DNA from: a virus
Taxonomy: Duplodnaviria > Heunggongvirae > Uroviricota > Caudoviricetes
IMG/VR virus record: IMGVR_UViG_3300010369_000001
Length of the DNA: 64,000 bases
Strand: one strand, 5' to 3'
The notes beneath the pieces were generated by a model. The model saw only the letters and a program-made list of their open reading frames with translations, had not been told where the DNA came from and made no database searches. The stretch's first letter is position 1, and every line of letters starts with the position of its first letter. Below, one piece after another: positions 148 through 13,982 of this stretch. The position numbers and the translations under genes are program-made.

Positions 148-148
148 C

Positions 149-493: not shown

Positions 494-504
494 TTCTTTT
501 TCTT

Positions 505-870: not shown

Positions 871-1300
871 TCCATTTCTCCTGAATAAATTTTTGTAAAT
901 CTTTTACATATGATTCTCGCCACTGCTGTTCAGCAGAGCCATAAGATACGAGGGCACTATGATACTGGTACAGTAACGCACCAGCTACAAACCCTTGGAA
1001 TATTAAGAAAGATATATCAGTAACTGGAATACCAATATCTGCAAACGTCTCAAAGGGTTCCTCAAAGACAGTGCAAGCTAAAATCCTATCACAGTAATCA
1101 GTATAGAACTTAATTGCTGGCTCTAATTTAGCCGGTGTAATATTATGTTCGGCCAGAAATAGATGAAACTCTGCATATTCTGGATTGGTTACAACATCAA
1201 TAGCTGTTTTAACAGCTTGTGGATATAACCCAACGATTGAATGGCTGGGCTGGTAAAAGGGGCTGCCCTCAGCCCCTTGCGGTCGCATAAATAATCCCAT
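812..1300 (-). CDS. hypothetical protein
   Basis: 162-aa ORF; its stop abuts the start of the downstream gene (1300/1301). Confidence 0.45.
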   Translation of the reverse strand: MGLFMRPQGAEGSPFYQPSHSIVGLYPQAVKTAIDVVTNPEYAEFHLFLAEHNITPAKLEPAIKFYTDYCDRILACTVFEEPFETFADIGIPVTDISFLIFQGFVAGALLYQYHSALVSYGSAEQQWRESYVKDLQKFIQEKWNVGNETPSPESVADGCAGK

Positions 1301-1795
1301 TTAAGTTCTTTTCTTTGAAGCTATAGACACTGCATCTTCAACTGACCAGCCTCTATTTATTCTTTTTTGAATAGTACCGTGAGGTACTCCTAATTTCTCA
1401 GCCCAAAACTGTAATGGTTGTTTTTCACCATTTACTTCAAGTATACGATTACTTCTTTTGTTGCGTGAATTAATTAATCGTGTAGTCCATCTACAATTAC
1501 TAGGACAATAATCACCATTATTATCAATTCTATCAATTTCTAAATTATCCGCATACTTATTAGATAAAGACCAATCACGAAAAGCAATAAAAGATTTAGA
1601 CCACTCATCACACACTTTAATTCCACGCCCGCCATAATTTGGATAAGCTTGTGAATTTATATTTTGGCATCGTTTTAAAATATCTGCCCAAATACTATAG
1701 AGTCTACTTCTTTTTCCTCGTTGACTCTCCCCATGTTGTTCCCGAGTGGAAGGCCTACCAAACTCTTCACGAGTAATATCTTTATTGATTTTCAA
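1301..1795 (-). CDS. HNH homing endonuclease (HNH_3-like) with C-terminal HTH; TTG start
   Basis: Motifs YSIWADILKRC...NYGGRGIKVCDEW...DRIDNNGDYCPSNCRWTT...N; paralogue of 2101..2748 and 45803..46456. There is no in-frame ATG, and the first start codon after the upstream stop is TTG at 1793-1795. Confidence 0.65.
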   Translation of the reverse strand: MKINKDITREEFGRPSTREQHGESQRGKRSRLYSIWADILKRCQNINSQAYPNYGGRGIKVCDEWSKSFIAFRDWSLSNKYADNLEIDRIDNNGDYCPSNCRWTTRLINSRNKRSNRILEVNGEKQPLQFWAEKLGVPHGTIQKRINRGWSVEDAVSIASKKRT

Positions 1796-1893
1796 ACGAT
1801 ATTTAAGAGTATCAATAGATAATCCAATTTCTGTGAGGCTTCTACAATACTTTCAAATTCAAAAATTTTTCGTTTATTATGAGTAGCCATTAA

Positions 1894-2094
1894 CTAACGT
1901 GTGGTCTTTTTTGCGTTATCTCTAATAATAGGTATATCCTTTGGACAAGATATACCTATTTTAACGCGTGAACCTTTAATTTCTCTAACGACAACTTCAA
2001 TGTTGTCTCCAATAAAAATCTTTTCATTAACCGCTCGTGTTAAAACTAGGAACGGTTTCTTTTCTCCTTCTTCTTGTCCTTCAAATACTGGCAT
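1894..2094 (-). CDS. csrA: carbon storage regulator CsrA/RsmA homologue with 14-aa N-terminal extension
   Basis: FLVLTRAVNEKIFIGDNIEVVVREIKGSRVKIGISCPKDIPIIRDN aligns residue-by-residue with E. coli CsrA [47 protein letters not shown]; ATG at 2092-2094. Confidence 0.75.
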   Translation of the reverse strand: MPVFEGQEEGEKKPFLVLTRAVNEKIFIGDNIEVVVREIKGSRVKIGISCPKDIPIIRDNAKKTTR

Positions 2095-2100
2095 TTTTGT

Positions 2101-2748
2101 TTAAACTTCTTCTACGTGTGTAAGAGCATGCTCCATTGACCAGCCCTTTTTTAATCTATTGAGCAATACTGCTCTTGTTATTCCATATTCCTCACACCAA
2201 TAGGCAACACAATGAGTTTCATTGTTGTACGTTAATAAACGATTTCCACGTTTATTACGTTGGTTCAACTTATGCGATACCCAACGACAATTATCTGGCA
2301 TATAATCACCATCGTTATTAGGGTACCTGTCTAACTGTAAACCTTTTTTATATCCATTATTCACAGACCATTTTTCAAACTCTTCATAAACTGCCCACTC
2401 ATTACAAATTTTTATTCCTCTTCCACCATAATTTTTATAAGCTACACAATTTGGATTTAAGCATCTTTGCCGCATACTTACCCAAATACTATATAGTTTA
2501 GGACGATTATTGTTACGTAAATGTCCATGTTTAGTATTAGCTTTAGCTCTTGCTTCAACACCAATACATCCACAACCTTGTATTCGTTTATTTTGTAATT
2601 GAGAACCTACAACATAAACAATTGTTTTAGCTACACATGAACATTGACATTTCCAATAAATACTACCACATTTATCTCGTCTAGTAGTTTCTTCAAGAAC
2701 AGTTAAACGTCCAAATGTTTTATCTTTTAAATTTATTTTTGCTGGCAC
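2101..2748 (-). CDS. HNH homing endonuclease (HNH_3-like) with N-terminal Cys-rich zinc-finger region; GTG start coupled to upstream stop
   Basis: CGSIYWKCQCSCV...CGCIG Cys cluster, then LYSIWVSMRQRC...NYGGRGIKICNEW...DRYPNNDGDYMPDNCRWVS and a C-terminal HTH. GTG at 2746-2748 overlaps the TAG of 2748..3590. Confidence 0.65.
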   Translation of the reverse strand: MPAKINLKDKTFGRLTVLEETTRRDKCGSIYWKCQCSCVAKTIVYVVGSQLQNKRIQGCGCIGVEARAKANTKHGHLRNNNRPKLYSIWVSMRQRCLNPNCVAYKNYGGRGIKICNEWAVYEEFEKWSVNNGYKKGLQLDRYPNNDGDYMPDNCRWVSHKLNQRNKRGNRLLTYNNETHCVAYWCEEYGITRAVLLNRLKKGWSMEHALTHVEEV

Positions 2749-3590
2749 TATACTTCCTCAGCATGCGATGCAATAACTGTATCCACTGTATCAGAAAGAG
2801 TGATCCCGATGTCTTTCACAAGAGCTACAAAATCATTAATACTACTTGCCGCTGCGTCCAATGCATCCACACTCATACTTTCCAATGTCTCAATCGACAC
2901 ATCATCCCTCCATTCCGTAATCTTCACACCCAACTTCTCAAACTTCTTAGTCACCGACTCAACCAGGTCATGAAGCTGGACACAAAGACTCTCAATATCG
3001 CCTTCTCCCGCTAACTCGTCAAGAGCGTCGCCATCTTTCTTACCTTTAGGCTGAGCTACAACTTCGTCATCAATATTGTGCGAAACTGTCTTACGCTCAA
3101 CCCCTAGAATAGCATCGACAGCCGCTCCTACCGCGCGAGAATAAAGAAGCTCTCCAGAAAAGATACGGTCGATAATCGATTGGCGGTCGATGGCATGCTC
3201 CTGAGAAGATAGGCGATTTAGCTCTCGAAGGTGCGCTAACGTTATTTTTACATTTTCTTTCCTGGCATCAGCTACTAATTGCACAAGATACTCATATCCC
3301 AAGATTTCACACAGCTTAGCTGCGTGATATAGGCTGCTGGTTGCTACGCCTAAAATTGAGGAAATAACCTCTACAAGATTATTGCTATATTCCTCCTTAT
3401 CCTCTGAACTAGCTAGCTGCTCTCTACGAACAGCTACGTCATTTCCTAGAGAAAGCATGTTCTCCAGCTCGGTAAAGCTATTGAAATTCTTGCCATGCTT
3501 TTCTACCAACGCTTTATCTTCTGCGTCTAAGCCCGCCAATAAGGCATCATATTTTTCAGAAACGGTGACAGATTTTTTAGTTTTTGCCAT
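2748..3590 (-). CDS. hypothetical acidic protein
   Basis: 280-aa ORF starting MAKTKKSV...; no recognisable catalytic motif. Confidence 0.5.
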   Translation of the reverse strand: MAKTKKSVTVSEKYDALLAGLDAEDKALVEKHGKNFNSFTELENMLSLGNDVAVRREQLASSEDKEEYSNNLVEVISSILGVATSSLYHAAKLCEILGYEYLVQLVADARKENVKITLAHLRELNRLSSQEHAIDRQSIIDRIFSGELLYSRAVGAAVDAILGVERKTVSHNIDDEVVAQPKGKKDGDALDELAGEGDIESLCVQLHDLVESVTKKFEKLGVKITEWRDDVSIETLESMSVDALDAAASSINDFVALVKDIGITLSDTVDTVIASHAEEV

Positions 3591-3648
3591 AAATTTTTAC
3601 TGACTAAGGGTTTGAAAGGCCCAAATATAGCAAAAATTTAGCTGATTG

Positions 3649-4035
3649 TCAAGGGGTAGGGCGGAAATTTACTTCCTGAATAAGCTTAATAAATTCGGAA
3701 TTATCTTGAATAAACCTCGTAAATATAGTGGTAAGCGCCTCAATTTCGCGTTCTTTAGGTTGTTTTAACCCGCTGTGATAATAGGCGGCGTGAACAATTT
3801 CGTGCATTAATGTTCCAACATAGGTATCTCGTTCTACCTTATCAGAAACCTCAATTAGTCCTTTGGTGTAAGAAATCGTACCACAAATCTCCCTGTCGCC
3901 CTCATTTTCAAGCCTTTTTTGCTCAACCCGGTAATTTACTGGGCCAACTCTGATGGAATTTATTAGACTCATTCCGTCAGTATACCAGAAAAGTGGACAC
4001 GTCGCCATCGAAGGCGATTCCGAAAATTGCATCAA
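3649..4035 (-). CDS. putative zinc metallopeptidase (HExxH)
   Basis: GTLMHEIVHAAYYH contains HExxH in a small protein; the true start may be an internal Met (MATCPL.. or MSLINS..). Confidence 0.4.
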   Translation of the reverse strand: MMQFSESPSMATCPLFWYTDGMSLINSIRVGPVNYRVEQKRLENEGDREICGTISYTKGLIEVSDKVERDTYVGTLMHEIVHAAYYHSGLKQPKEREIEALTTIFTRFIQDNSEFIKLIQEVNFRPTP

Positions 4036-4359
4036 ATCAAGATACTACGTGTGTATCCGAGAGAAATAAATTCAGCTACCTTCTAGCTCGGCCTAGAAAA
4101 TAACCTACACTAACCATACTTTCTTTCCTATTTCGTGGGGCTAGTACGGTAAAACAGGGCAATCTTAGTGGCGCCGGGTTTTCTCTACCAAGATTATCTC
4201 GATCAACCCGCTCGCTAAGCAGCGAGGGCGAAAGCTCTATTTTTGCCTTCTAAAATGTTTGCAGCTCGATTTTTACGCAGCCAACGAGGCCATCTGCGAC
4301 ACGCACTTTAATCTTCAGCTAATCACGTCGATCCCTTTCGTGCCCAAGATATTATTATA

Positions 4360-4485
4360 TCAAATCCCAAAAAACATGAGAACTACAATCCTTATTGTTC
4401 CCATAACCGCCAAAACCGTCATACTTAAGGCCAGTGTTGCTAAGAGTAAACACAAACTATTAAACACCATAGTACCCATATCCAT
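4360..4485 (-). CDS. possible 41-aa hydrophobic peptide (below the ORF-track length cutoff)
   Basis: My own minus-strand translation: MDMGTMVFNSLCLLLATLALSMTVLAVMGTIRIVVLMFFGI. It lies in the otherwise non-coding 4036..4502 gap. Confidence 0.2.
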   Translation of the reverse strand: MDMGTMVFNSLCLLLATLALSMTVLAVMGTIRIVVLMFFGI

Positions 4486-4502
4486 TTGCCTAAGCCAGTT
4501 CT

Positions 4503-4790
4503 TCATTTATTGTCCTTTTTACTGAATAAAAGCTTCTTAATTTCTTCCTTAGTTCCTTTGCACACATATTTACCGAACGTTGTATATAGCGTACAAGTTG
4601 ACGTATCTTTAACTACTACTTCACGTATGCCTTGAATAGAGCCATAGGGTAAACAAACAGTTTCATTACCAACTAGCTCTATGTCATACCACACATCATT
4701 CCATGTGGCGGACTTATATGTTCCAAAGGGATTACTATTACTGCTAGCACCAAATAATTGTTCAAATATGCTTTGATTTGTCACAGTCAT
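4503..4790 (-). CDS. hypothetical protein
   Basis: 95-aa ORF; its start abuts the stop of the upstream gene at 4790. Confidence 0.45.
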   Translation of the reverse strand: MTVTNQSIFEQLFGASSNSNPFGTYKSATWNDVWYDIELVGNETVCLPYGSIQGIREVVVKDTSTCTLYTTFGKYVCKGTKEEIKKLLFSKKDNK

Positions 4791-5167
4791 TACGTTGTTC
4801 CGCTGGGTGGTACCTGTTCACTAAAAATCTTTCTATATTTATCTGCATCAGGGCCCGCTGTCCAAGGCGCCGCTGATACGCGCTTCACATCTTCCCGGTG
4901 TTTTTCAAGCAATTCACGCAATTTCTTTTGCCCAGCTTCAGTGTCCAAATCTGCCGCCGTAAACTTAGCACTAGAAAGTGGCAATTCAACTCTCCCGGTA
5001 AACATATCTTGCATTGGAACTATAGCGCGATGCCCTTTATAGACAAACTCTAATAATTCATTATCACCATTTGGCGTACTGTCATATGTTGCCCCTAACT
5101 CTATCAGCGCAATAAGATTGTCACTTATATTACTAACGTATTTGAAAAATTTATCCAATTTAGTCAT
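4790..5167 (-). CDS. hypothetical protein
   Basis: 125-aa ORF, start/stop coupled to neighbours. Confidence 0.5.
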   Translation of the reverse strand: MTKLDKFFKYVSNISDNLIALIELGATYDSTPNGDNELLEFVYKGHRAIVPMQDMFTGRVELPLSSAKFTAADLDTEAGQKKLRELLEKHREDVKRVSAAPWTAGPDADKYRKIFSEQVPPSGTT

Positions 5168-5499
5168 TCTTCTGTTATCTCCACTTGTGAGTCTATGAAT
5201 TTAATTTTTTCTGCTAATTCCGTCATTAGGTAATCAACATCTACTGCCCTAGCGTTGTCAAGCCGTTTGCATAAGAGATATAAGTCTTTAGCTTGGCTCA
5301 TTAAGAAGACATTTCCCAAGGCCTGCTGCTCACCAACATCTTTACCTATTGAGACAACCAGACATAATTCTCGACCATCATCAGCTTCTGCTATAGCAAT
5401 ATGCGGAAATTCTACATAGTGACTAACTCTCCAAGGGCCGGGTGTTACTGGATATTTCTCTAATGTATCTGTCTTCTTCTTTGATCGTTTCTTCGTCAT
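5164..5499 (-). CDS. hypothetical protein
   Basis: 111-aa ORF with an ATGA-type overlap with the neighbouring gene. Confidence 0.5.
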   Translation of the reverse strand: MTKKRSKKKTDTLEKYPVTPGPWRVSHYVEFPHIAIAEADDGRELCLVVSIGKDVGEQQALGNVFLMSQAKDLYLLCKRLDNARAVDVDYLMTELAEKIKFIDSQVEITEE

Positions 5500-6001
5500 A
5501 TGGGTTTATTGGGGTTATTATTTCTCGGCCAATTATTAACCAGATCCAAAAATACCGTGTACGCTCTGTAACTAACCACAGCCGTGTATCCTCGCGCGGA
5601 TTTACTGGAAGCACATCATTCACTCGAAGTACATTTATCCCGTGAAAAAGTCGTGAGCTGCTAAGTGAAGTTGCTGCCGGAAAACTATTTCTAGCTACAA
5701 CCACGTCTATCTGCTCTCCTCTATACTCAAGTGTTTGAATAGGTAGCTCTTCTATTTTAGATATAAACTGTGAAACGCCATGTCGTTCACTAACAACTGC
5801 ATTACCTATAAAAGAGCCTACGCCGCCTAAAAGTAATAGTGTTACCCCAAAAAACCAGCACCAAGCCGTGAACCACTCATTTAACCCATAATTACGACAA
5901 GTTTTAAAGAAAACCAAAGACCAGAAACCTACATTTAACCAAAATAACCAAAATAGCTGACCGTTATGTACACTATCAAGTAACATCTGTGTTGTTATCA
6001 T
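5423..6001 (-). CDS. hypothetical membrane protein
   Basis: Hydrophobic helices WLFWLNVGFWSLVFF and WCWFFGVTLLLLGGVGSFIG; the start may be an internal Met. Confidence 0.45.
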   Translation of the reverse strand: MITTQMLLDSVHNGQLFWLFWLNVGFWSLVFFKTCRNYGLNEWFTAWCWFFGVTLLLLGGVGSFIGNAVVSERHGVSQFISKIEELPIQTLEYRGEQIDVVVARNSFPAATSLSSSRLFHGINVLRVNDVLPVNPREDTRLWLVTERTRYFWIWLIIGREIITPINPYDEETIKEEDRYIREISSNTRPLES

Positions 6002-6329
6002 TTGGAAAAGGCCCTAAGCTGGGCTGTAAAAGTTTTGGAACATAACGCAACTTCTTACGAATATTGCCTTTCTTAGTTAACTGCTGCGCCAGACATTGGT
6101 CGTCGCAGAATAGTAACAGCGCCTGTTTAGTCGTTACTGGCTGCCACCCCGTATCTAAAGCAACTTTAGCTAACTGATGACCATAAATAATTGGCTCCGA
6201 GCCGAACAGGGTTACTCGCTTTCTACACGTAACACATACTAACGTAGTTGGCTCACTCATGATGATACGTCGTGAGTTATTGGTAGAATACACTCTAACG
6301 CAGCCCACTGTGTTGCGCCCATGCTGCAA
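5976..6329 (-). CDS. hypothetical protein (CxxC pairs)
   Basis: LVCVTCRK...FCDDQC suggests a possible zinc ribbon. Confidence 0.4.
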   Translation of the reverse strand: MQHGRNTVGCVRVYSTNNSRRIIMSEPTTLVCVTCRKRVTLFGSEPIIYGHQLAKVALDTGWQPVTTKQALLLFCDDQCLAQQLTKKGNIRKKLRYVPKLLQPSLGPFPNDNNTDVT

Positions 6330-6703
6330 AATTTATAGCGGACTGGGAATAGGCTGCTTTTTATGTTGTGCTCAATTTGTTTTTTAAATATTTCCAAGGT
6401 TGTGCCTCGCTGCTTAGCCCAAGTTACACAAAGCCCTACTGGGAAATCCGGATCATCTTCATCGGCGTTCCAGAAAATATGGACAGCAAAGAGCTGTTTA
6501 ATATGTTTAAACCCAAACTGCCCTTCCCTGATTTCCTCCATAAACATTAAATAATGTCCACGATCTTCGGGCACGTCATCGTCCCAATACTGTTCATCAA
6601 TCTTGGGAAAACCACTTTTACCGTAAACCGCTGCTGACATAGCCTTAGCTACCCTATCACCACTTTGTTCTTCAGTCTTCTGGGACATCGTTTCTTCTTG
6701 CAA
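6257..6703 (-). CDS. hypothetical protein
   Basis: 148-aa ORF. Confidence 0.45.
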   Translation of the reverse strand: MQEETMSQKTEEQSGDRVAKAMSAAVYGKSGFPKIDEQYWDDDVPEDRGHYLMFMEEIREGQFGFKHIKQLFAVHIFWNADEDDPDFPVGLCVTWAKQRGTTLEIFKKQIEHNIKSSLFPVRYKFCSMGATQWAALECILPITHDVSS

Positions 6704-7208
6704 TTTTCTCTAATAAGTTTATTAACCAGCGTACTTGAGACGTCAATAATGTATACGCTCTTAGCTTATCTTCTTGATGCGAATGATAATCCATATAAAG
6801 CGTATCTATTACATTCTTCAATATTTTTCTATCGTCATACTCTAACTGAAGTCTTCCGTCCCATTCAGTAAAGAGAAACTGCTTAGATTTGTAATCAAAA
6901 TTATCTTCATTGCGCACAAGCATACAAGCAACATGCTCAGGGACATGCTGAATAAATGCCGCCATATCATCACAAAAAACTTCAATTCCAAGCTCAACAA
7001 TCGCCTTAGCTTTAGAATCATCATCTTTATTTGCGTAAATAATATCTTTATATTTGATACCTAAGCTTTCAAGCTCCGCTTCATCTCTAGCTCTATTAAC
7101 TGGGCGATAGGTAAGAATATATACATCATCCAGCCAACAGTTAGATAAATAAGCAAAAACCTTTGGATACCTAGTAATACAGCCGTCAATATCTAAAGCT
7201 ATTTTCAT
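6672..7208 (-). CDS. HAD-superfamily hydrolase (putative phosphatase/nucleotidase)
   Basis: N-terminal MKIALDIDGCIT carries the DxDGxxT motif I of HAD phosphatases; ATG at 7206-7208. Confidence 0.55.
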   Translation of the reverse strand: MKIALDIDGCITRYPKVFAYLSNCWLDDVYILTYRPVNRARDEAELESLGIKYKDIIYANKDDDSKAKAIVELGIEVFCDDMAAFIQHVPEHVACMLVRNEDNFDYKSKQFLFTEWDGRLQLEYDDRKILKNVIDTLYMDYHSHQEDKLRAYTLLTSQVRWLINLLEKIARRNDVPED

Positions 7209-7396
7209 GTCGTTACTGTCATTGCGTAATCAATTTCTTGCTGAACTACCTCATGAGGACGATTCACAAAATGAGTACAAAACGCTGTACCAATTACAGT
7301 ACCTTTTCCGCATTCGGACGGAACTACGGATTTAATGTATTTCACCGGAACCGTAACCGTGTAATCGTCCTTGTTAACATAGGAAAAACTTCTCAT
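7205..7396 (-). CDS. small hypothetical protein (start moved to ATG at 7394-7396)
   Basis: The ORF track gives 7205..7513, overlapping the Thg1-like gene by 116 nt. The ATG at 7394-7396 sits 1 nt after the Thg1 stop (TAGAATG) and gives MRSFSYVNKDDYTVTV... Confidence 0.35.
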   Translation of the reverse strand: MRSFSYVNKDDYTVTVPVKYIKSVVPSECGKGTVIGTAFCTHFVNRPHEVVQQEIDYAMTVTT

Positions 7397-7397
7397 T

Positions 7398-8219
7398 CTA
7401 CTCTCTCGTTTCTGCATGTAGTTCAGGCTCAGCGCCGTATAAAAGTACTTCTGTACGATTTTTGATTTTTGTAAGAATTGGAAAATCCATAATCTCAGTT
7501 CTGTTCCGCTCAAAGATTAAATCAGGGTTCGTTCGAGCTAAATGTTTTTCTGGTAGCTCATGTAACTCATCTGCTGTGAATTTTTCCAATACTCTAATTG
7601 TACGAATATAAGTACCTCGCTTTTGCTCATTTGAATAATCATTCCAATTAATCCCTTTTTCACTAAATAATTTCTCCTGTAACTGATTACAGCTAAGCTC
7701 CTGAAGAGATTTATGCGAGAAATTAGCTTGCGCAGCTGCTTGAATAGAATTACGGACTGCATCTAGCTCACGCCAGATAAAGTAGTTACCTACCTCTTCT
7801 TCGGGGTAGTTTGCAGCTCGGCAATCAAATATAGGCTCCATAGTCGCATGAACAGCCGGCGCTCCTGGTACAATAGCCATCGCATAATTAAATCGAACTG
7901 AGGCCATTGCAGCCAAAATAGAAACTATTTTAAACAGCTTCCCGTCAAAGAAAATCTGACTGTCATACTTTGGAGAATGAAACAATAATGAAATCTCGTC
8001 TGACTGGGTATAGCCTAGCTTAGCTCCAGTTTGTTTTACAAGATATTTCATAGTGTAAACCATAACTTGGTGAAACCCTTCATCAAAAGGTTTTCTAAAG
8101 TTCCTAGTTAATGTATGAAATGCTCTACCGTCTAATCGAGCTATTACTGGCACCATCGGTATAAGACTTTGCTGCCCTATTTGCTCATATATTTTCATTC
8201 TCTCCGCTAATGCTTCCAT
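7398..8219 (-). CDS. Thg1-like protein (tRNA-His guanylyltransferase / 3'-5' nucleotide polymerase family)
   Basis: VIARLDGRAFH, GYTQSDEISLLF and EKLFSEKGINWNDYSNEQKRGTYI match Thg1 VVRLDGRNFH, YGQSDEYSFVF and EILFSEFNINYNN..RKGTV, including the catalytic Asp and the D-E pair. Confidence 0.75.
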   Translation of the reverse strand: MEALAERMKIYEQIGQQSLIPMVPVIARLDGRAFHTLTRNFRKPFDEGFHQVMVYTMKYLVKQTGAKLGYTQSDEISLLFHSPKYDSQIFFDGKLFKIVSILAAMASVRFNYAMAIVPGAPAVHATMEPIFDCRAANYPEEEVGNYFIWRELDAVRNSIQAAAQANFSHKSLQELSCNQLQEKLFSEKGINWNDYSNEQKRGTYIRTIRVLEKFTADELHELPEKHLARTNPDLIFERNRTEIMDFPILTKIKNRTEVLLYGAEPELHAETRE

Positions 8220-8479
8220 TTTTCCTCCAATTCCTTAATTTGTACATCTAGCTCCTCTAACTGCTCGTCTGTAATCCACGGCTCATGAATTATTACAGCC
8301 CACTCAGTGCGCACTATTCCAGACATCATATATATGAGCCATCCTATTAAAATAAACACCTCATATTGCTGACCTAGCTTTAACCATGGCGATACAATCA
8401 TCATAAACAACAATATCGCTAATGCGCACAAAATAAAATGTGGATAAACTAAATCTCTACGCGGGAATAATGGGCTCAT
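8207..8479 (-). CDS. small membrane protein (two predicted TM helices)
   Basis: FILCALAILLFMMIVSPWL and VFILIGWLIYMMSGIV. Confidence 0.45.
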   Translation of the reverse strand: MSPLFPRRDLVYPHFILCALAILLFMMIVSPWLKLGQQYEVFILIGWLIYMMSGIVRTEWAVIIHEPWITDEQLEELDVQIKELEEKWKH

Positions 8480-9449
8480 CTAAATCAGGTCTAAAAGCTA
8501 CAATCCTGCCGAAACGAGGCTTATCTTTAATTCCGCCGTCCTGAAAGACAATATCAACGTGCCTCCCTAAATATTTCTTACGATTCTTCCACGTAATTTC
8601 AGTGCGAATGTCATAAGCTTCTTTAGCAAAACCTACGCCGCACTTTAATCCCTCTGGAAAACCCTGCTCAGCAATAATCTCCACAAAAACTGTCCCAACC
8701 TCATCAACTAGCTCGCGGTCAGCTTTCTTGTGCCCTCGCTTAGTCCGGCCAAGATTATCCTTAGTTGTATTAGTTTTCTTAGCTTCCTCAGTAAGAATCC
8801 CCTTCTGACCAAAATCTACAATCTTTGCAGAAATAGTAGTCCACTGCTTCATTTTCCAAAAGATGTTCTGTTTCGCTGTCGCGCGAGAATGAATATACGG
8901 CGATTTAGGGCAATGAAGCATAATCCCCTCCATGCCGCCTTTAACATTAAAGTCAAATTCGTTTTGCACAGCTTTCTCATTGTGACAAACAGTGTGATGA
9001 ACTGGAACTAATTTAACTTGATTTGGATCGTTTTTATCGCACCATTCCTGATAATCAACGACTCGTTCTTCAAAAGCTTTCGCCCCTTCTTTGTTTTTCC
9101 ATGTTATATTTTTCTTCCATTCAGCTACAGTCACCATATCAAAGACATACAGCTTCAGGTCTCCTACGTCTTCTTCGTGAGCCATAGCAGCAGTTATTTC
9201 ATGGAACTTCATCCCTTCAGCACATATCTCGCCATCAAGTATTACACCTGAGCTAGTAGCTAGCTCAACAATATCTTTAAACCGTTTAGTAACGACTGGA
9301 TGCAAAGGCTCCATTTTTTTAGATAGAAATTTTCCATCTACTATAAGAAATCGAACCCCATCAAACTTTGTACTCGTTAGGACGGGGTAGTTTATTTTTG
9401 AAAGTACAGGCTTATCATTTGCCGCCTGCATTGGTTTTAACATCGGCAT
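8457..9449 (-). CDS. ATP-dependent DNA ligase (T7-like)
   Basis: Motif I KFDGVR (KxDG), motif III ILDGEI, YVFDMV, EGIMLH and FWKMK correspond to T7 ligase KLDGIR, YDMV, EGLIVK and WWKMK. The track start at 9461 is TTG; the ATG at 9447-9449 is preceded by GGAGA. Confidence 0.75.
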   Translation of the reverse strand: MPMLKPMQAANDKPVLSKINYPVLTSTKFDGVRFLIVDGKFLSKKMEPLHPVVTKRFKDIVELATSSGVILDGEICAEGMKFHEITAAMAHEEDVGDLKLYVFDMVTVAEWKKNITWKNKEGAKAFEERVVDYQEWCDKNDPNQVKLVPVHHTVCHNEKAVQNEFDFNVKGGMEGIMLHCPKSPYIHSRATAKQNIFWKMKQWTTISAKIVDFGQKGILTEEAKKTNTTKDNLGRTKRGHKKADRELVDEVGTVFVEIIAEQGFPEGLKCGVGFAKEAYDIRTEITWKNRKKYLGRHVDIVFQDGGIKDKPRFGRIVAFRPDLDEPIIPA

Positions 9450-9745
9450 ATTGTTCTCCAATCATATGATAACTTATCTTCTTTTGTAAAACGTCCAAAC
9501 GTATATTCAGGGTAATCTGTTGATATAAATTTATTACTGCAGCGCTTCTTTTTTGGGTATTTAACTAAACAAACAAGCTTTAAAGCGCTGGTAAGACCGA
9601 TTAATACTTCTACCCCGCTTTTTCTTATGCGCCCAGAAACAAGTCCGTTATGTACTGCGTTATCATGCGCTGTTCTGAAACCGAAACGAACACCGTTATC
9701 TGGTAATTTAGCTAATGGCGTCGGAATTAAAGGCATCCACTTCAT
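9437..9745 (-). CDS. hypothetical protein
   Basis: 102-aa ORF. Confidence 0.4.
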   Translation of the reverse strand: MKWMPLIPTPLAKLPDNGVRFGFRTAHDNAVHNGLVSGRIRKSGVEVLIGLTSALKLVCLVKYPKKKRCSNKFISTDYPEYTFGRFTKEDKLSYDWRTICRC

Positions 9746-9747
9746 TT

Positions 9748-10008
9748 TTACTCTACTGATCTGTTAAAGTTGTTCCACGCGTCTACTACAAATTCACGAT
9801 TATTATGGGCAAAAGAAGTATGATGATAGTCTCCATTATCTAAGCGCCCTCCACAACTTACCTGAACATAAGTTCCATCAGCTGATCCAGATAATGAAGT
9901 TTCTTTTTTGCAATACTTACAGGGGTTCAAAATACCTAGTAAACCTACCGGGTGCTCTGGTTTTTTTAGTGTATCAGATTCGCGGTCTTTCGTTGCTGTT
10001 TTATCCAT
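9748..10008 (-). CDS. hypothetical Cys-containing protein
   Basis: CKYCKK...C; 86 aa. Confidence 0.4.
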   Translation of the reverse strand: MDKTATKDRESDTLKKPEHPVGLLGILNPCKYCKKETSLSGSADGTYVQVSCGGRLDNGDYHHTSFAHNNREFVVDAWNNFNRSVE

Positions 10009-10613
10009 TCTCGGTGACTATCCTCTAGCTTGAGCCAACCACTGCCGTAAACTTGCATTTTAAGCAAGTCATACATCTTATAAAGTGGTATCAATTTTTC
10101 TGGGTCTTTAGTAAACATCGGCCACGCCTGTAGCCCATTACGAATCTTTGGCCAATGAACTAGCTCAATTGCTGCAGCAGCTGCCACTTCGGGAGGTATA
10201 TTCTCTTCCCCACCTAACATTACAGCTGTACAATAAGCTGCTAGGGGCTCACTAGGGCGCCGTAACATTTTATCAACTGGAGCATTAGCAAAATCATAAA
10301 TTAGCTTAGCTGCGATAATGCACTTTGTACGAGCTTGCTCTTCTTCAATCTCCATGTAGTGACAATAACAATCCTCAGCTGCCCGCCCTGTAAGGTGACT
10401 GAACTTAATAGGGCCTGGAATTGACAATTTGTGCTTTTGCTCAACAAGAAACTGCGCCCTTATAAAATACTCAACGGTAGGGCAATTTGATTCTTCAGTA
10501 TACTGCGCAAATCGTTTTATGTCCTTTTTACTCAACCATTTACCGAGCTTTCGACCATGCCATTGACATTCCTGTTTCCAGGTCTCTTCAATTACTTCTT
10601 CAACATTTATCAT
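9966..10613 (-). CDS. hypothetical protein
   Basis: 215-aa ORF. Confidence 0.5.
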   Translation of the reverse strand: MINVEEVIEETWKQECQWHGRKLGKWLSKKDIKRFAQYTEESNCPTVEYFIRAQFLVEQKHKLSIPGPIKFSHLTGRAAEDCYCHYMEIEEEQARTKCIIAAKLIYDFANAPVDKMLRRPSEPLAAYCTAVMLGGEENIPPEVAAAAAIELVHWPKIRNGLQAWPMFTKDPEKLIPLYKMYDLLKMQVYGSGWLKLEDSHREWIKQQRKTANLIH

Positions 10614-10624
10614 CTCAATTCCTT

Positions 10625-11155
10625 TCAGTCTGAGTAGCGTGTTAAATAATTATGTTTCCACATAGTCAAAAATAAATCATAAGGTCGCTGTACTGCAACT
10701 TTACTAGTACCGTAATTGTCTATTGTCATACGACCAACAACTCGATCTGATTTAAATTTAACTTTGCTCTTAGCAAAAGCTAAGCCCCTATAGGAACCAA
10801 CACCGTCATCAAAAATAACAATATCTTCCGAGAACTCAGCTAAATGCTTGAGCACTTGCTGTATCGGCAAACTATGAAATTTTTCCCAAGTAAGCACCTT
10901 GTTATAAGCCAACACTATTGAATAGTCACACGACCACTCCGCCTCAGAAAAGCTGAGCAACTTATCACTGTCTCGGCGCGATTTAATCACTTCTTTCGGG
11001 TAAGACATGGCCGAATAATACTGCTCGCAAATCAAACTTTCAAACGTTTTTTCCTGCCGTTCTTTATATTCTTCTGGATTATCACCATGAACAACGCTTT
11101 GAAAAAAGGCATTTGGTGTATATATTTTTGGATCACTCTTCTGTTTCCTGCCCAT
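10625..11155 (-). CDS. hypothetical protein
   Basis: 176-aa ORF. Confidence 0.5.
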   Translation of the reverse strand: MGRKQKSDPKIYTPNAFFQSVVHGDNPEEYKERQEKTFESLICEQYYSAMSYPKEVIKSRRDSDKLLSFSEAEWSCDYSIVLAYNKVLTWEKFHSLPIQQVLKHLAEFSEDIVIFDDGVGSYRGLAFAKSKVKFKSDRVVGRMTIDNYGTSKVAVQRPYDLFLTMWKHNYLTRYSD

Positions 11156-12125
11156 TTATTTTTCCTCCGTCGATTAGCAACCTGTAAGCTGAGTCTAAAT
11201 TCTTACTGTTTGCAAAAGTGCTCGGATAGTTCAAAATCTCAAATTGAATCATCAACTTCTTCCAAATACTGTACGACAATTTTAGCTCACGTAATTCTTC
11301 AACCGTATATTTTGTATCTTTATAAATGTAATGCCAGTTTATTAAGGGCAAATCTACATCTATATCTGAAGCCAACAAATTTAAAGCTTTTTCAAAAGTT
11401 CTGCGATTATCTTTATCTCTAGCACTGTTTAAAGAAGGGCAGCAATTTAATAAAGTTTCTACGCCAAGCTTATTTCTAGCAACTTTATCCTCATTTGCGC
11501 GCAACCCATAATGAGAGACCATTTTTTTACCAATAGCATAAGCATTTACGTTTTGAGCACTTAGCTTAAATAGATCAGTAAAATACGGCAGAATAATGGA
11601 CAATTCTTTGAGATGTTTTAGTAATCCTGGCTGAATATGAACTTCAAAACAGCCATCGCCACTTATAATTTCCTTTTTTGTAACTTTCCCGTCTCTATCT
11701 CGAATATCAACGCTTACCACTAATCCAAACCACTCAGTGGACTCGCCCTGAGCTAAATGTATATAACCTAGCCGTTGTATGTCTTCTCGAATAACATCGT
11801 AATATTTGTGTCTGTTTTGCCGAGTATCTTTCAAGCCCATGACCACTAAATAGTCAGAAAGAGTGAATCTTATATCGGAATTTTTCCAATCGCCTCGATC
11901 ACCATTGTACTTGGTTACGAGAAGAAGGAGATAATCAAATAACTTCTTAGCGGACAAGCCAACTGTTAAAGCTGCCTCGGAAATATTACTGACAGCAATT
12001 TTTTTCCCACCATAGATAAGAGTTAGCTGCTCTCCCACCTTAGTGGGTAAGCTATCCAACGCTGATACTGCCTGAACAGCAGAGGTAGAAGCGATGGGGT
12101 AACAATCTCTTAAATTTTCTTTCAT
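11133..12125 (-). CDS. hypothetical protein; candidate origin-binding/replication initiator (by position only)
   Basis: 330-aa ORF immediately downstream (in its own orientation) of five 21-bp-spaced iterons and beside the DnaB-like helicase. No sequence motif supports the function. Confidence 0.5.
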   Translation of the reverse strand: MKENLRDCYPIASTSAVQAVSALDSLPTKVGEQLTLIYGGKKIAVSNISEAALTVGLSAKKLFDYLLLLVTKYNGDRGDWKNSDIRFTLSDYLVVMGLKDTRQNRHKYYDVIREDIQRLGYIHLAQGESTEWFGLVVSVDIRDRDGKVTKKEIISGDGCFEVHIQPGLLKHLKELSIILPYFTDLFKLSAQNVNAYAIGKKMVSHYGLRANEDKVARNKLGVETLLNCCPSLNSARDKDNRRTFEKALNLLASDIDVDLPLINWHYIYKDTKYTVEELRELKLSYSIWKKLMIQFEILNYPSTFANSKNLDSAYRLLIDGGKINGQETEE

Positions 12126-12158
12126 TTTGTTAAAATAGGTAAATTAATTCTTAAAAAT

Positions 12159-12264
12159 GTCCACAAGCTCTCGCCGGCCTTTTTGTCCACAAGCTCTCCC
12201 TAGATGTCCACAAGCTCTCGCCTCGCGTCCACAAGCTCTCGCCTCGCGTCCACAAGCTCTCGCC
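12159..12264. repeat. iteron array: five direct repeats of GTCCACAAGCTCTCGCC (one variant) at 21-bp spacing; candidate replication origin
   Basis: Repeat starts are at 12159, 12185, 12206, 12227 and 12248, in the 300-bp intergenic region between the DnaB-like helicase and ORF 11133..12125. Confidence 0.7.
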
Positions 12265-12320
12265 AGCCCTTTTTGTAAGTCCTTACTGTGTAAAGGTTTG
12301 CGAGCAACTCGAAATTTTCA

Positions 12321-12358
12321 TACTATAAGGTTAATACTATAAGGTTAAACTATAAAGT
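12321..12358. repeat. AT-rich 14-bp tandem repeat TACTATAAGGTTAA x2 plus a partial third copy; possible DNA-unwinding element next to the iterons
   Basis: Copies at 12321-12334 and 12335-12348, with a partial copy at 12349-12358. Confidence 0.55.
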
Positions 12359-12425
12359 CAAAACGGTAAATCTAATAGAAATTTTTCGCCGGCGCTTCGC
12401 GCCAGCTCAAATTTCTAACTGAATT

Positions 12426-13982
12426 TTAATTATCAGAACTCCGCATTTCTGAGACATGGGTTCTTTTCCCTTTTGCTGTTGTAGAATCCTTTTCCTTTTT
12501 CTGCCAACTTTTCTGCGGCACCTCAATCACCGCCCCCTTTACCTCAATCATGGTTCCAATGTCCCCGATCAACCTTAACCCCGTTGGAGCTATCTTCTTG
12601 TTTTCTCTGGCCTTGGTACAGGTTATCGTGCTTGTCATGTCTTCCTCCTTCAGCATACTGACATTGAAGCACGCTACATAATGCATAGCTAAGCTCTTAC
12701 TGCCCATTCCATCTGTGTGATCTAGTGTCTGCCCAGCTTTTTTCTTATTTCCCTCACCATTGGCCTGATTAACCACCCACACAGGGCAATCAAACTTATA
12801 GGCGATACTGTCCCTTATTCGCCAAGGAATACTTTGAACCGCCATCCAAAGATTTAGCTTTTTATCGTTAGAAAGCATGTCAAAAGCTAAGTCCGCAGTG
12901 TGGTCAACAACAGCTAAAGCACAATGAGATTTAATTCCCCTTTGCTTATCTGCATCCAAGGCACGCTGAATCATCATCACGATAACATCTATAGGGTCAG
13001 AAGCCGCGCTTCTTATTTCTGGTTTTGTAAGGTCGATAATGCGCAAATTCTTAGCTATTTCCTTCATTGCCATTGCTTCACGCTCAACTTCACCAAAAAC
13101 ACCACTAAAATACGTTTTGCTGATTTCTAAGTCTCTAGCTGTAGGAGCTCTAGACGAAGTTTTAGGAGTTGGATCCTTTCCGCTGATTTTCGCCAGCGGA
13201 ACTTTACCTATATATGACACAAAACGATTAGTAACCTTGTCCATCCCATCTTCTGTCGTTATGTAGAAAACCTTCCCAAGGGAAGCTCTCCCTAAAGAAA
13301 TTCGATACCTGTTCATCTGCAATTCTGCCCATTCAGCTGCCACTTGAACACTACAACACGTTTTTGCGGCACCAGTGGGCCCCAAAAAGCTGTACATCTC
13401 ACGGTTGGCAAATCCCCCAACATATTTATCGATGAAGGAAATTCCAGTAGGCTGAAACTGAGCTAGAGCATTCCTAGCTGCCCTCATGCTCTCTGACATC
13501 GGATTGAAATCATCATCCGTAAACTGGGTTCCAGCTCTGGCTTTGTCCAAAGCGTTGGCATAATTCCTTAACACATCGCCTACTTCTTCTGTCGGAAGCT
13601 CAGGAAGGCCCAAAATCAGCTCCTGGTGAGCAAGTTGCGAAATTAAGGTCCCAGACCAGTAGGAAAGCTCAGCGGCCGTTAGAATCGAGCTATGAGCGTT
13701 TTGGACTAAATTGTACAATTCTATCCATTCTTCTTCATCTAGCTCAGGTGTCCCATTTTGCGCAGCTTGACTCAATCTTTCTTGGATAGACAGCAGAAGA
13801 TTGTGTTTTCCTGGGACGGTTTTCAGTTTCTGTACCGCGTCTGCTACGGTCTCGTAAAGGATGGCCAGGTCACGACGCCCCAGAAAGGCCGATGAAGTGA
13901 TCTGACCTGTAAATATTTGCCAATTCTCCAGTGAGGAGATCGCTGCTTGCAGCAGCATCGTTTTTCTCTCATTTGTTATCAT
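12426..13982 (-). CDS. DnaB-like replicative DNA helicase
   Basis: QPTGISFIDKYVGGFANREMYSFLGPTGAAKT resembles the DnaB helicase-domain entry (TGF..LD....G....L.......GKT) and carries a Walker A. VVDHTADL looks like a Walker B, and VVNQANGEG like helicase motif H3. Confidence 0.65.
   Translation of the reverse strand: MITNERKTMLLQAAISSLENWQIFTGQITSSAFLGRRDLAILYETVADAVQKLKTVPGKHNLLLSIQERLSQAAQNGTPELDEEEWIELYNLVQNAHSSILTAAELSYWSGTLISQLAHQELILGLPELPTEEVGDVLRNYANALDKARAGTQFTDDDFNPMSESMRAARNALAQFQPTGISFIDKYVGGFANREMYSFLGPTGAAKTCCSVQVAAEWAELQMNRYRISLGRASLGKVFYITTEDGMDKVTNRFVSYIGKVPLAKISGKDPTPKTSSRAPTARDLEISKTYFSGVFGEVEREAMAMKEIAKNLRIIDLTKPEIRSAASDPIDVIVMMIQRALDADKQRGIKSHCALAVVDHTADLAFDMLSNDKKLNLWMAVQSIPWRIRDSIAYKFDCPVWVVNQANGEGNKKKAGQTLDHTDGMGSKSLAMHYVACFNVSMLKEEDMTSTITCTKARENKKIAPTGLRLIGDIGTMIEVKGAVIEVPQKSWQKKEKDSTTAKGKRTHVSEMRSSDN

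What the first reader, a model, noticed from the sequence alone, without database searches (positions are those of the whole stretch)
7398..8219. Phage-encoded Thg1-like 3'-5' nucleotide polymerase
The ORF carries the diagnostic Thg1/TLP blocks (IARLDGRAFH, TQSDEISLLF, LFSEKGINWNDYSNEQKRGTYI), and the catalytic carboxylates are in place. Established knowledge: Thg1 adds G-1 to tRNA-His, and bacterial Thg1-like proteins repair 5'-truncated tRNAs by templated 3'-5' addition. A virulent phage carrying one suggests it repairs tRNA 5' ends, its own or the host's, perhaps as a counter-measure to host tRNA-directed nucleases. That would be analogous in logic to T4 Pnk/Rnl1 but act on the opposite end. 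I am not aware of this being a described phage counter-defence.
Basis: partly seen in the sequence, partly recalled or inferred. Interest (0 to 1): 0.75.

Follow-up and report, generated by a model that had tools for sequence, protein, structure and literature searches.

The report
Phage Thg1-like 3'-5' RNA polymerase gene
The ORF is a genuine, apparently active Thg1-like reverse (3'-5') RNA polymerase in an uncultivated jumbo phage, but such genes are common and routinely annotated in large phages, and the idea that they repair tRNA against host defences was published in 2010 and 2021 and, as far as my searches show, never tested.

Summary
Observation confirmed. Window 7398..8219 (-) encodes a 273-aa Thg1-family protein (Pfam PF04446 E=1.9e-29; PHROG 4717 E=3.9e-82). 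The closest solved structure is the Bacillus thuringiensis Thg1-like protein BtTLP (E=2.3e-46; AlphaFold pLDDT 95.5; Foldseek TM up to 0.90).

All catalytic residues align (D30, D74, E75, plus K43, S73, N157, R28, K97, R134). The eukaryotic HINNLYN motif is absent, so it is a TLP-type templated 5'-end repair enzyme, not a tRNA-His G-1 adding enzyme.

Repair is plausible. Around viral homologues the commonest neighbours are RlaP, CCA-adding enzyme and RNA ligases, with one RtcB, plus tRNA arrays. This phage carries a tmRNA 3 kb downstream of the gene, and two RNA ligases and a phosphoesterase 10-17 kb downstream.

It is not new. 162 GenBank phage records and at least 592 IMG/VR contigs carry homologues. 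The counter-defence idea is in Anantharaman et al. 2010 and Iyer et al. 2021. BtTLP itself is 75-77% identical to Bacillus phage TLPs.

I found no defence system that truncates tRNA 5' ends, so the physiological substrate remains unknown. Verdict: new member of a known kind; modest interest.

The parts
7398..8219 (-). Thg1-like protein (TLP) gene, 273 aa
   Evidence: ORF. Pfam PF04446 E=1.9e-29. PHROG 4717 E=3.9e-82. PDB 4kgk E=2.3e-46. AF2 pLDDT 95.5. Foldseek best matches are BtTLP 4kgm/4kgk.
7803..8204 (-). Palm (catalytic) domain, residues 6-139
   Evidence: Extent of the Pfam Thg1 match. It contains R28, D30, K43, S73, D74, E75, K97 and R134, which align with residues shown by mutagenesis or structure to act in activation and nucleotidyl transfer in Thg1/BtTLP.
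7398..7802 (-). Fingers / C-terminal region, residues 140-273. It includes the WRELDAVRNS segment (N157) and the conserved LPxKH...R238 motif.
   Evidence: Weak Thg1C match for residues 145-209. Foldseek aligns about 260 columns to BtTLP and CaThg1. W149, R150, D153, N157, S158, L222, P223, H226 and R238 are invariant in 102 homologues. The query reads DAVRNSIQ where CaThg1 has DCHINNLYN.
8130..8132 (-). Codon of D30 (metal-binding carboxylate)
   Evidence: GAC read on the minus strand. Aligns with BtTLP D30 / human D29.
7995..8000 (-). Codons of D74 and E75 (second and third carboxylates)
   Evidence: GAC GAG read on the minus strand. Align with BtTLP D75/E76. Invariant in alignment A2.
3991..4345 (-). 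Phage-encoded tmRNA, 3.1 kb downstream on the same strand. It is a tRNA-like RNA and a possible, unproven, substrate; listed here as context.
   Evidence: Rfam RF00023, 69.7 bits against gathering score 47, E=4.6e-25, full length. The acceptor stem is 5'-GGGCACG / CGUGUCC-A with G3.U70. The tag reading frame ends ...ALAA*. ARAGORN missed it.
8457..9461 (-). Upstream neighbour: ATP-dependent DNA ligase (context; not shown to work with the TLP)
   Evidence: PF01068 E=1.1e-10. PHROG 114 E=4.1e-38. PBCV-1 DNA ligase 1p8l E=4e-23. No homologue lies next to the TLP in 75 viral loci.
6672..7208 (-). Downstream neighbour: small HAD-like protein with DIDGC / DD motifs (context; substrate unknown)
   Evidence: Only 6 homologues, which carry DxDGT...DD motifs. 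No Pfam hit. The AF2 model is poor (pLDDT 65.8). Foldseek gives only weak matches to capless HAD phosphatases (E>=4.5e-3).

Best explanation
The gene encodes an active bacterial-type Thg1-like protein (TLP).

Mechanism, inferred from close homology to characterised enzymes: the enzyme activates a 5'-monophosphate RNA end with ATP or GTP, giving an App/Gpp-RNA intermediate. It then uses two Mg2+ ions held by D30 and D74 to join the 3'-OH of an incoming NTP to that end. The NTP is chosen by Watson-Crick pairing with the 3' strand of the acceptor stem. Finally it removes pyrophosphate. The net result is that missing 5' nucleotides of a tRNA-like acceptor stem are rebuilt in the 3'-5' direction.

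Physiological role, inferred from context: during infection it helps keep the translation RNAs usable, meaning host and/or phage tRNAs and possibly the phage's own tmRNA. It would do this alongside the phage's other RNA-repair enzymes: two RNA ligases and a metallophosphoesterase 10-17 kb downstream on the same strand.

Shown here: family, fold, intact catalytic residues, TLP rather than Thg1 type, and genomic associations. Inferred: activity, substrate and benefit to the phage.
For: Family and fold.

Catalytic, activation and transfer residues are conserved, matched to functional data in PMC3701042.

TLP type: the best match is BtTLP, the HINNLYN motif is absent, and full-length relatives occur in Myxococcota and Planctomycetota. 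BtTLP prefers 5'-truncated tRNAs, shows no bias toward adding G on those substrates, and is not restricted to tRNA-His (PMC3061083). BtTLP is 75-77% identical to the TLPs of 47 Bacillus phage records, so a phage-type orthologue has the repair activity in vitro.

Context in relatives: 149 proteins of at least 195 aa lying within 3 kb of the TLP were scanned in 52 dereplicated IMG/VR loci. The most frequent Pfam families were RNA_ligase (5) and RlaP (5), then PolyA_pol/CCA-adding, tRNA_NucTran2_2, Metallophos, HD, Cas12f1-like_TNB and HNH_3 (3 each), with one RtcB. Unbiased clustering over +-10 kb gave RlaP in 7 loci, CCA-adding enzyme in 5, HAD_SAK_2 in 4 and Rnl1 in 3. At least 22 of 52 loci have a tRNA gene and/or an RNA-repair enzyme within 10 kb. 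In several loci the TLP sits inside a tRNA array on the same strand.

Context in this phage: tmRNA at 3991..4345. Left of the window, in sequence 100% identical over the 10.5-kb overlap, lie a PF09414 RNA ligase, a Metallophos protein and a PF09511 Rnl1-like ligase. A tRNA-Met lies just right of the window.
Against: No assay exists for this protein or, as far as my searches show, for any phage-encoded TLP.

None of the tRNA-targeting defence systems in the papers I read removes 5' nucleotides. They report anticodon-arm cuts, D-loop cuts, a nick in the 3' strand of the acceptor stem, CCA-tail clipping or acceptor-stem modification.

The immediate neighbours in the window are a DNA ligase, small unknown proteins and an unassigned HAD-like protein. 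None is a recognised RNA-repair gene, and none recurs next to the TLP elsewhere.

No polynucleotide kinase was detected.

The neighbourhood census has no background control, and about 58% of loci show no RNA-related neighbour.
Confidence: 0.6

Rival explanations
1. It is a tRNA-His maturation enzyme. It adds G-1 to a phage-encoded (or host) tRNA-His so that HisRS can charge it, as the usual database name 'tRNA-His guanylyltransferase' implies.
For: Bacterial TLPs can add G-1 opposite C73 in vitro (PMC3061083, section list). tRNA-His genes lie 4-10 kb from the TLP in L011, L019 and L065/L066.
Against: The HINNLYN anticodon-recognition motif of true Thg1 is absent (PMC6471195). In L011 and L019 the phage tRNA-His genes already encode G at -1 opposite C73, as in bacteria. 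L012 and L017 carry 23 and 28 tRNA genes around the TLP but no tRNA-His. Homologues occur in phages of Caulobacter, Sinorhizobium and Brevundimonas. From my own knowledge, unverified here, tRNA-His in such alphaproteobacterial hosts lacks G-1. No tRNA-His gene is visible in the roughly 93 kb of this phage that I could read.
Confidence: 0.12
2. It matures the phage's own tRNA-like RNAs rather than countering defence. It would rebuild or 'edit' 5' ends of tRNAs from densely packed arrays, or of the phage tmRNA, by analogy with mitochondrial tRNA 5'-editing by DdiTLP3.
For: The TLP lies inside or beside tRNA arrays on the same strand in L012, L014, L017 and L018. In L012, L017 and L018, 23 of 62 tRNA genes have an unusual G1.U72 top pair followed by A73, against 6 of 95 in the other loci. 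A tmRNA lies near the TLP in the window, in L020 and in L038. The DdiTLP3 precedent is in PMC6471195.
Against: Apart from initiator-type 1:72 mismatches, the first three acceptor pairs of 149 tRNAs are not enriched in true mismatches. The G1.U72 pattern is confined to one lineage. Most TLP loci, and this window, have no tRNA array nearby.
Confidence: 0.15
3. It acts on something other than tRNA-like RNA. Candidates are 5' ends of other RNAs or of nucleic acids at the replication fork, or it adenylylates 5' ends to feed a ligase. This is suggested by its position between a DNA ligase and replication genes.
For: The gene sits in a tightly packed co-directional block with a DNA ligase, a Rep-like protein, a DnaB-like helicase and a DNA polymerase. 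Anantharaman et al. raised ligation through a 5'-App intermediate and noted yeast Thg1-Orc2 links.
Against: DNA-ligase adjacency is not conserved in 75 viral loci. The recurrent neighbours are RNA-repair and tRNA genes. All characterised family members act on tRNA-like acceptor stems.
Confidence: 0.08
4. It is a dispensable passenger gene with no selected role in this phage.
For: Its distribution among phages is sporadic and its neighbourhood is variable.
Against: The full-length ORF keeps every invariant residue of a 102-member alignment. The identical protein occurs on contigs from several independent samples.
Confidence: 0.05

Closest known systems
Bacillus thuringiensis TLP (BtTLP; PDB 4KGK/4KGM) and its 75-77% identical orthologues in Bacillus Herelleviridae phages (e.g. 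Bc431v3 orf143, Hobo gp168)
   Same: Same family, fold and catalytic residues: E=2.3e-46, 36-38% identity in the structural alignment, TM up to 0.90. Bacterial/TLP type without HINNLYN. Templated repair of 5'-truncated tRNAs is shown in vitro for BtTLP.
   Different: The window protein is 28 residues longer, and its sequence aligns to BtTLP only up to residue 205. Its C-terminal region (LPxKH...R motif) resembles the roughly 270-aa TLPs of Myxococcota, Planctomycetota and jumbo phages instead. It has not been characterised.
Pseudomonas phage 201phi2-1 gp319 and other jumbo-phage 'tRNA-His guanylyltransferases' (PHROG 4717)
   Same: Full-length homologues at 39-46% identity over more than 93% of the protein. 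Phage-encoded. Already proposed as RNA repair against host defence.
   Different: Different phage lineage: TerL of this phage is at most 25% identical to any isolate. Neighbouring genes differ.
Eukaryotic Thg1 (yeast, human, C. albicans)
   Same: Same superfamily, two-metal active site and three-step chemistry.
   Different: Eukaryotic Thg1 adds a single non-templated G-1 to tRNA-His and reads the GUG anticodon through the HINNLYN motif. That motif is absent here.
Dictyostelium DdiTLP3 / mitochondrial tRNA 5'-editing
   Same: A TLP with a proven physiological role: rebuilding tRNA 5' ends using the 3' strand as template.
   Different: In that system an unidentified nuclease first removes encoded mismatches. 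No equivalent mismatches or nuclease are evident here.
T4 Pnkp/Rnl1 tRNA repair pathway
   Same: The same logic of restoring tRNAs damaged during infection. This phage also has an Rnl1-like and a second RNA ligase plus a phosphoesterase nearby.
   Different: T4 heals and seals an anticodon-loop break. The TLP adds nucleotides to a 5' end, needs a template strand, and has no known matching host nuclease. No polynucleotide kinase was found here.

Membership tests
Thg1 superfamily (PF04446) | Significant match to the Thg1 catalytic-domain profile | tested here: met
   102.6 bits against gathering score 29.2, E=1.9e-29. PHROG 4717 E=3.9e-82.
Thg1 superfamily (PF04446) | Three conserved carboxylates of the two-metal site (human D29/D76/E77; BtTLP D30/D75/E76) | tested here: met
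   D30, D74 and E75 align and are invariant in 102 homologues. Numbering from PMC3701042.
Thg1 superfamily (PF04446) | Activation-step residues (human K43/S74/N158) and nucleotidyl-transfer residues (R27/K95/R130) | tested here: met
   K43, S73 and N157, and R28, K97 and R134, align with the CaThg1 and BtTLP residues. All except K43 are invariant; position 43 is K or R in relatives.
Thg1 superfamily (PF04446) | Polymerase-like palm plus fingers fold | tested here: met
   AF2 pLDDT 95.5. The top 32 PDB matches are all Thg1/TLP, E down to 4e-23.
Thg1 superfamily (PF04446) | 3'-5' nucleotide addition activity | not testable with these tools
   Requires an enzyme assay.
TLP subgroup (bacterial/archaeal-type, repair enzymes) | Lacks the eukaryote-specific HINNLYN motif | tested here: met
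   The query reads DAVRNSIQ where CaThg1 has DCHINNLYN. Role of the motif: PMC6471195.
TLP subgroup (bacterial/archaeal-type, repair enzymes) | Closer to characterised TLPs than to Thg1 | tested here: met
   BtTLP E=2.3e-46 against CaThg1 3.6e-17 and human 6e-8. Foldseek ranks BtTLP chains first.
TLP subgroup (bacterial/archaeal-type, repair enzymes) | Kinetic preference for 5'-truncated tRNA and strict Watson-Crick templating | not testable with these tools
   Known for BtTLP and MaTLP. Not measurable here.
Bona fide tRNA-His guanylyltransferase (Thg1 sensu stricto) | HINNLYN motif / anticodon-dependent, non-templated G-1 addition | tested here: not met
   The motif is absent. Nearby phage tRNA-His genes in relatives encode G-1.
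Phage tRNA healing-and-sealing pathway (T4 Pnkp + Rnl1 type) | RNA ligase encoded by the phage | tested here: met
   A PF09414 ligase (536 aa) and a PF09511 Rnl1-like ligase (372 aa) lie 10-17 kb downstream, outside the window, on sequence 100% identical over the overlap.
Phage tRNA healing-and-sealing pathway (T4 Pnkp + Rnl1 type) | Polynucleotide 5'-kinase / 3'-phosphatase | tested here: inconclusive
   No kinase family appeared among 82 window ORFs or in the precomputed Pfam labels of the genes read left of the window. A Metallophos protein and an unassigned HAD-like protein could supply end-healing, but this is unproven.
Phage tRNA healing-and-sealing pathway (T4 Pnkp + Rnl1 type) | A cognate host nuclease that creates the lesion | not tested
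   The host is unknown. The literature I searched lists no 5'-truncating tRNA nuclease among defence systems.

The most novel reading that the evidence does not exclude
Phage TLPs, including this one, form the 5'-end arm of a phage kit that maintains the translation RNAs: tRNA arrays, tmRNA, CCA-adding enzyme, RlaP and RNA ligases. They would counter a still undiscovered class of host defence, or host 5'-3' exonucleolytic decay, that removes 5' nucleotides from tRNA or tmRNA acceptor stems. If so, the wide spread of these genes in large phages would predict a new kind of tRNA-directed immunity.
Probability: 0.2. Interest if true: 0.7.

Novelty: new member of a known kind. Interest (0 to 1): 0.3.

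Why it matters
The physiological role of bacterial and phage Thg1-like proteins is still open. They are the only polymerases known to work 3'-5', yet outside eukaryotes and protist mitochondria nobody knows which RNA they repair in vivo.

Their recurrent placement next to tRNA arrays, tmRNA, CCA-adding enzymes, RlaP and RNA ligases in large phages makes phage infection a sensible setting for finding the natural substrate. It might also reveal a host activity that attacks tRNA 5' ends.

This particular gene adds one more divergent example from an uncultivated jumbo phage. It does not make the question more testable than the homologues in cultured phages already do (201phi2-1, Bastille-like Bacillus phages, GAP32).

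Tried and rejected
(1) TLP and the adjacent ligase as an RNA-repair pair: rejected. The ligase is a Chlorella-virus-type DNA ligase (1p8l, E=4e-23), and no homologue lies near the TLP in 75 viral loci.

(2) The HAD-like downstream gene as an RNA end-healing phosphatase: inconclusive. There is no Pfam hit. Only six homologues exist. There is no significant similarity to HAD_SAK_2. The model is poor (pLDDT 65.8) and the fold matches are weak.

(3) tRNA genes in the window: ARAGORN finds none. However, Rfam finds a tmRNA that ARAGORN missed.

(4) tRNA-His lacking G-1 in TLP-linked arrays: not seen.

(5) A 5'-editing signature (mismatches at acceptor pairs 1-3): not seen beyond initiator-type tRNAs. 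My first parse was off by one for tRNAs with an unpaired 1:72 and was corrected.

(6) A conserved operon around the TLP: none. The commonest neighbour family is present in only 7 of 52 loci.

(7) Promoter and terminator scan of 1..13000: counts do not exceed the shuffles.

(8) Nucleotide-level relatives among isolate phages: none. TerL is at most 25% identical.

(9) tmRNA as a general partner of TLP: found in only 3 loci. These are the window, L020, and L038; L038 was the only hit among 24 further loci scanned with Rfam. nhmmer with the two standard tmRNAs (window and L020) found nothing more.

(10) Literature search for an experimental study of a phage TLP: none found in five searches. The Burroughs and Aravind 2016 RNA-repair paper was not available.
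Full report
THE OBSERVATION

Window 7398..8219 on the minus strand is an ATG-initiated ORF of 273 codons. It matches Pfam Thg1 (PF04446) at 102.6 bits against a gathering score of 29.2 (E=1.9e-29, residues 6-139). It matches PHROG 4717, 'tRNA-His guanylyltransferase', at E=3.9e-82 over residues 2-264. NCBIfam has no model for it.

Against PDB sequences the best match is the Bacillus thuringiensis Thg1-like protein BtTLP (4kgk, E=2.3e-46). This is far ahead of Candida albicans Thg1 (3.6e-17), Methanosarcina TLP (4.3e-13) and human THG1 (6e-8). An AlphaFold2 model built on 102 homologues has mean pLDDT 95.5. Its 32 significant PDB matches are all Thg1/TLP chains, with BtTLP first (TM up to 0.90 on the target).

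ACTIVE SITE AND SUBTYPE

BtTLP's metal-binding carboxylates are D30, D75 and E76, equivalent to human D29, D76 and E77 (PMC3701042). They align with D30, D74 and E75 of the query. The codons are at window 8130-8132 and 7995-8000.

Residues assigned to 5'-end activation (human K43, S74, N158) correspond to K43, S73 and N157. Residues assigned to nucleotidyl transfer (R27, K95, R130) correspond to R28, K97 and R134. E12 corresponds to E12. All but K43 are invariant in the 102-sequence alignment; position 43 is K or R.

Where eukaryotic Thg1 carries the HINNLYN motif that stacks on the tRNA-His anticodon (PMC6471195), the query has AVRNSIQ. The protein is therefore a TLP, the subgroup whose characterised members rebuild 5'-truncated tRNAs by Watson-Crick templated 3'-5' addition and are not restricted to tRNA-His (PMC3061083).

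Residues 206-273 do not align to BtTLP by sequence. They are nevertheless conserved (LPxKH...R238). They are shared with the roughly 270-aa TLPs of Myxococcota, Planctomycetota and other bacteria at 38-52% identity, so they are not a phage novelty.

THE GENOME IT SITS IN

The identical protein occurs on metagenomic contigs of up to 225 kb from several samples. The window carries the following:
- a family-A DNA polymerase, a DnaB-like helicase and an SbcC-like protein
- an RIIA-like protein and a large terminase
- NAMPT, a NUDIX protein and ThyX
- a protein with a Tad2-like domain.

A tubulin homologue lies just outside the window. There is no nucleotide match to any isolate phage, and TerL is at most 25% identical to any. 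This is an uncultivated jumbo-size phage. Its lifestyle cannot be judged from 64 kb.

IMMEDIATE NEIGHBOURS

The gene lies in a tightly packed, co-directional run with overlapping stops and starts. In order these are: ligase (8457..9461), a 90-aa membrane-like protein, the TLP, a 63-aa protein, and a 178-aa HAD-like protein (6672..7208).
- The ligase is a Chlorella-virus-type DNA ligase.
- The HAD-like protein could not be assigned.
- None of these neighbours recurs next to the TLP in 75 viral loci.
- Promoter and terminator scans are uninformative.

I therefore do not treat these neighbours as part of a system.

WIDER CONTEXT IN THIS PHAGE

Rfam detects a full-length tmRNA at 3991..4345 on the same strand, 3.1 kb downstream (69.7 bits against 47; E=4.6e-25). 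It has a G3.U70 acceptor stem and a tag frame ending ALAA. ARAGORN had missed it.

Sequence 100% identical to window 1..10493 continues to the left. It carries a 536-aa PF09414 RNA ligase, a metallophosphoesterase, a radical-SAM/SPASM pair and a 372-aa Rnl1-like ligase. These lie 10-17 kb downstream of the TLP on the same strand. A tRNA-Met lies about 400 bp beyond the right edge. No polynucleotide kinase, CCA-adding enzyme, RlaP or RtcB was seen in the window scan or in the labels of the flanking genes I could read.

CONTEXT IN RELATIVES

IMG/VR holds at least 592 contigs with a relative. GenBank phages hold 162 records. The family has 5,779 representatives at 50% clustering.

In 80 viral loci with +-10 kb flanks, roughly a quarter have tRNA genes nearby. 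All the tRNA genes listed are on the TLP strand, and in L012, L014, L017 and L018 the TLP lies inside or against an array.

I scanned 149 proteins of at least 195 aa lying within 3 kb of the TLP in 52 dereplicated loci. The most frequent Pfam families were RNA_ligase (5) and RlaP (5). Six families followed at 3 each: PolyA_pol/CCA-adding, tRNA_NucTran2_2, Metallophos, HD, Cas12f1-like_TNB and HNH_3. There was one RtcB.

Unbiased clustering over +-10 kb gave these counts:
- RlaP: 7 loci
- CCA-adding enzyme: 5
- Metallophos_2: 5
- MazF-like toxin: 5
- TnpB: 4
- NAMPT: 4
- HAD_SAK_2: 4
- Rnl1: 3

At least 22 of 52 loci have a tRNA gene and/or an RNA-repair enzyme within 10 kb. In L005 and L028 an RNA ligase gene ends exactly where the TLP gene begins. 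A tmRNA lies near the TLP in two further loci, L020 and L038, but in none of 23 others scanned.

Two caveats apply. My gene calling was a simple longest-ORF heuristic. I had no whole genomes from which to compute a background rate. The association is consistent and suggestive, not statistically established.

MECHANISM AND ROLE

The chemistry can be inferred with good confidence from BtTLP and other family members: 5'-phosphate activation by ATP or GTP, two-metal templated nucleotidyl transfer, then pyrophosphate release.

BtTLP, on which 'bacterial' TLP biochemistry rests, is 75-77% identical over 238 residues to the TLPs of 47 Bacillus phage records, the listed ones being Herelleviridae-sized genomes such as Bc431v3. 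In effect, a phage-type orthologue has already been shown to repair 5'-truncated tRNAs in vitro.

The physiological role is inferred only from context: maintenance of tRNA-like RNAs during infection.

Against tRNA-His maturation:
- The HINNLYN motif is absent.
- tRNA-His genes near the TLP in L011 and L019 encode G-1 opposite C73.
- Large TLP-associated arrays contain no tRNA-His.

Against a 5'-editing role:
- Acceptor pairs 1-3 are not enriched in mismatches beyond initiator-type tRNAs.
- However, one lineage (L012, L017, L018) has G1.U72 in 23 of 62 tRNA genes, which I cannot explain.

Against the counter-defence reading as stated: the tRNA-directed defence mechanisms described in the two papers I read are anticodon-arm cuts, D-loop cuts, a nick in the 3' strand of the acceptor stem, CCA-tail clipping and acceptor-stem modification. 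None leaves a 5'-truncated tRNA. The lesion the TLP would mend has no known source.

COMPARISON WITH WHAT IS KNOWN

[quoted passage not shown] They were listed among jumbo-phage RNA-repair functions in 2021 (PMC7824862). They have their own PHROG and are annotated in most of the 162 GenBank records. I found no experimental study of any phage TLP.

VERDICT

This is a real, intact, TLP-type 3'-5' polymerase gene and a new, divergent member of a known and widespread kind. It is at most 65% identical to anything in the large protein collection and below 46% identical to any GenBank phage. Interest is modest (0.3).

The most novel reading still open is that these enzymes answer an undiscovered host activity that removes tRNA or tmRNA 5' nucleotides. 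I give that about 0.2 probability. It is best tested in cultured phages that carry homologues.

Noticed in passing
window 3991..4345 (-): A full-length phage-encoded tmRNA: Rfam RF00023, 69.7 bits, E=4.6e-25. The tag frame reads GKNRAFALAA* and the acceptor stem has G3.U70. ARAGORN did not find it. Gene callers left a gap of about 350 nt here.
   Followed up: partly
L012, L017, L018 (IMG/VR loci; tRNA arrays flanking the TLP at about 10001-10800): 23 of 62 tRNA genes have a G1.U72 wobble at the top of the acceptor stem followed by A73, and none has an encoded CCA. In the other loci the figure is 6 of 95 tRNA genes. The pattern is lineage-specific and unexplained. It could bear on 5'-end processing or TLP templating.
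   Followed up: partly
left of the window: L091 13404-20345 / L095 5232-13797 (same phage; 100% identical over the 10.5-kb overlap): A gene run reading: RNA ligase (PF09414, 536 aa), p179, metallophosphoesterase, radical-SAM (609 aa), SPASM (304 aa), p78, Rnl1-like ligase (372 aa), p138 with a weak RNA_pol_A_CTD hit, then a tubulin homologue (381 aa). A radical-SAM/SPASM pair sandwiched between two RNA ligases is unusual.
   Followed up: no
window 54206..55633 (-), 52349..53326 (-), 55994..56899 (-): NAMPT (475 aa), a NUDIX-domain protein (325 aa) and a Band_7/SPFH protein. This looks like an NAD+ salvage set of the kind proposed to counter NAD-depleting defences. NAMPT, and separately Band_7, also recur within 10 kb of the TLP in other viral loci.
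   Followed up: no
window, position not mapped (Pfam census of 82 ORFs): One ORF carries a Tad2-like (Thoeris anti-defence 2) domain, E=8e-6. Others match dATP/dGTP diphosphohydrolase N-terminal domain, SAICAR synthetase, ThyX, UDG, DUF3268, CAP, Clp_N and thioredoxin.
   Followed up: no
window about 1895..2095 (-) (L001 16126-16326): A 66-aa CsrA homologue (PF02599) encoded by the phage.
   Followed up: no
L059, L060, L082, L085, L086 (IMG/VR loci): PemK/MazF-like endoribonuclease toxin genes lie within 10 kb of the TLP in 5 of 52 dereplicated viral loci. Two of these loci (L059, L085) also hold both RlaP and a CCA-adding enzyme, and L060 holds a CCA-adding enzyme.
   Followed up: no
PDB 4kgk versus L177:6001-6735 (Bacillus phage Bc431v3 orf143) and 46 other Bacillus phage records: BtTLP, the structurally and biochemically characterised 'bacterial' enzyme, is 75-77% identical over 238 residues to TLPs of Bacillus phages. 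The model enzyme may itself be of phage origin.
   Followed up: partly
L043 (IMG/VR 3300038299_000184): One 20-kb stretch holds the TLP together with RlaP, an Rnl1-like ligase, a PF09414 ligase, HAD_SAK_2, two metallophosphoesterases and NAMPT. It is a compact RNA-repair island and a good candidate for study.
   Followed up: no
L093 11920-11992 (-), about window 64419..64491, just outside the window: A tRNA with CAT anticodon, a U1-A72 top pair and no encoded CCA. It is the only tRNA gene seen in the roughly 93 kb of this phage that could be read.
   Followed up: no
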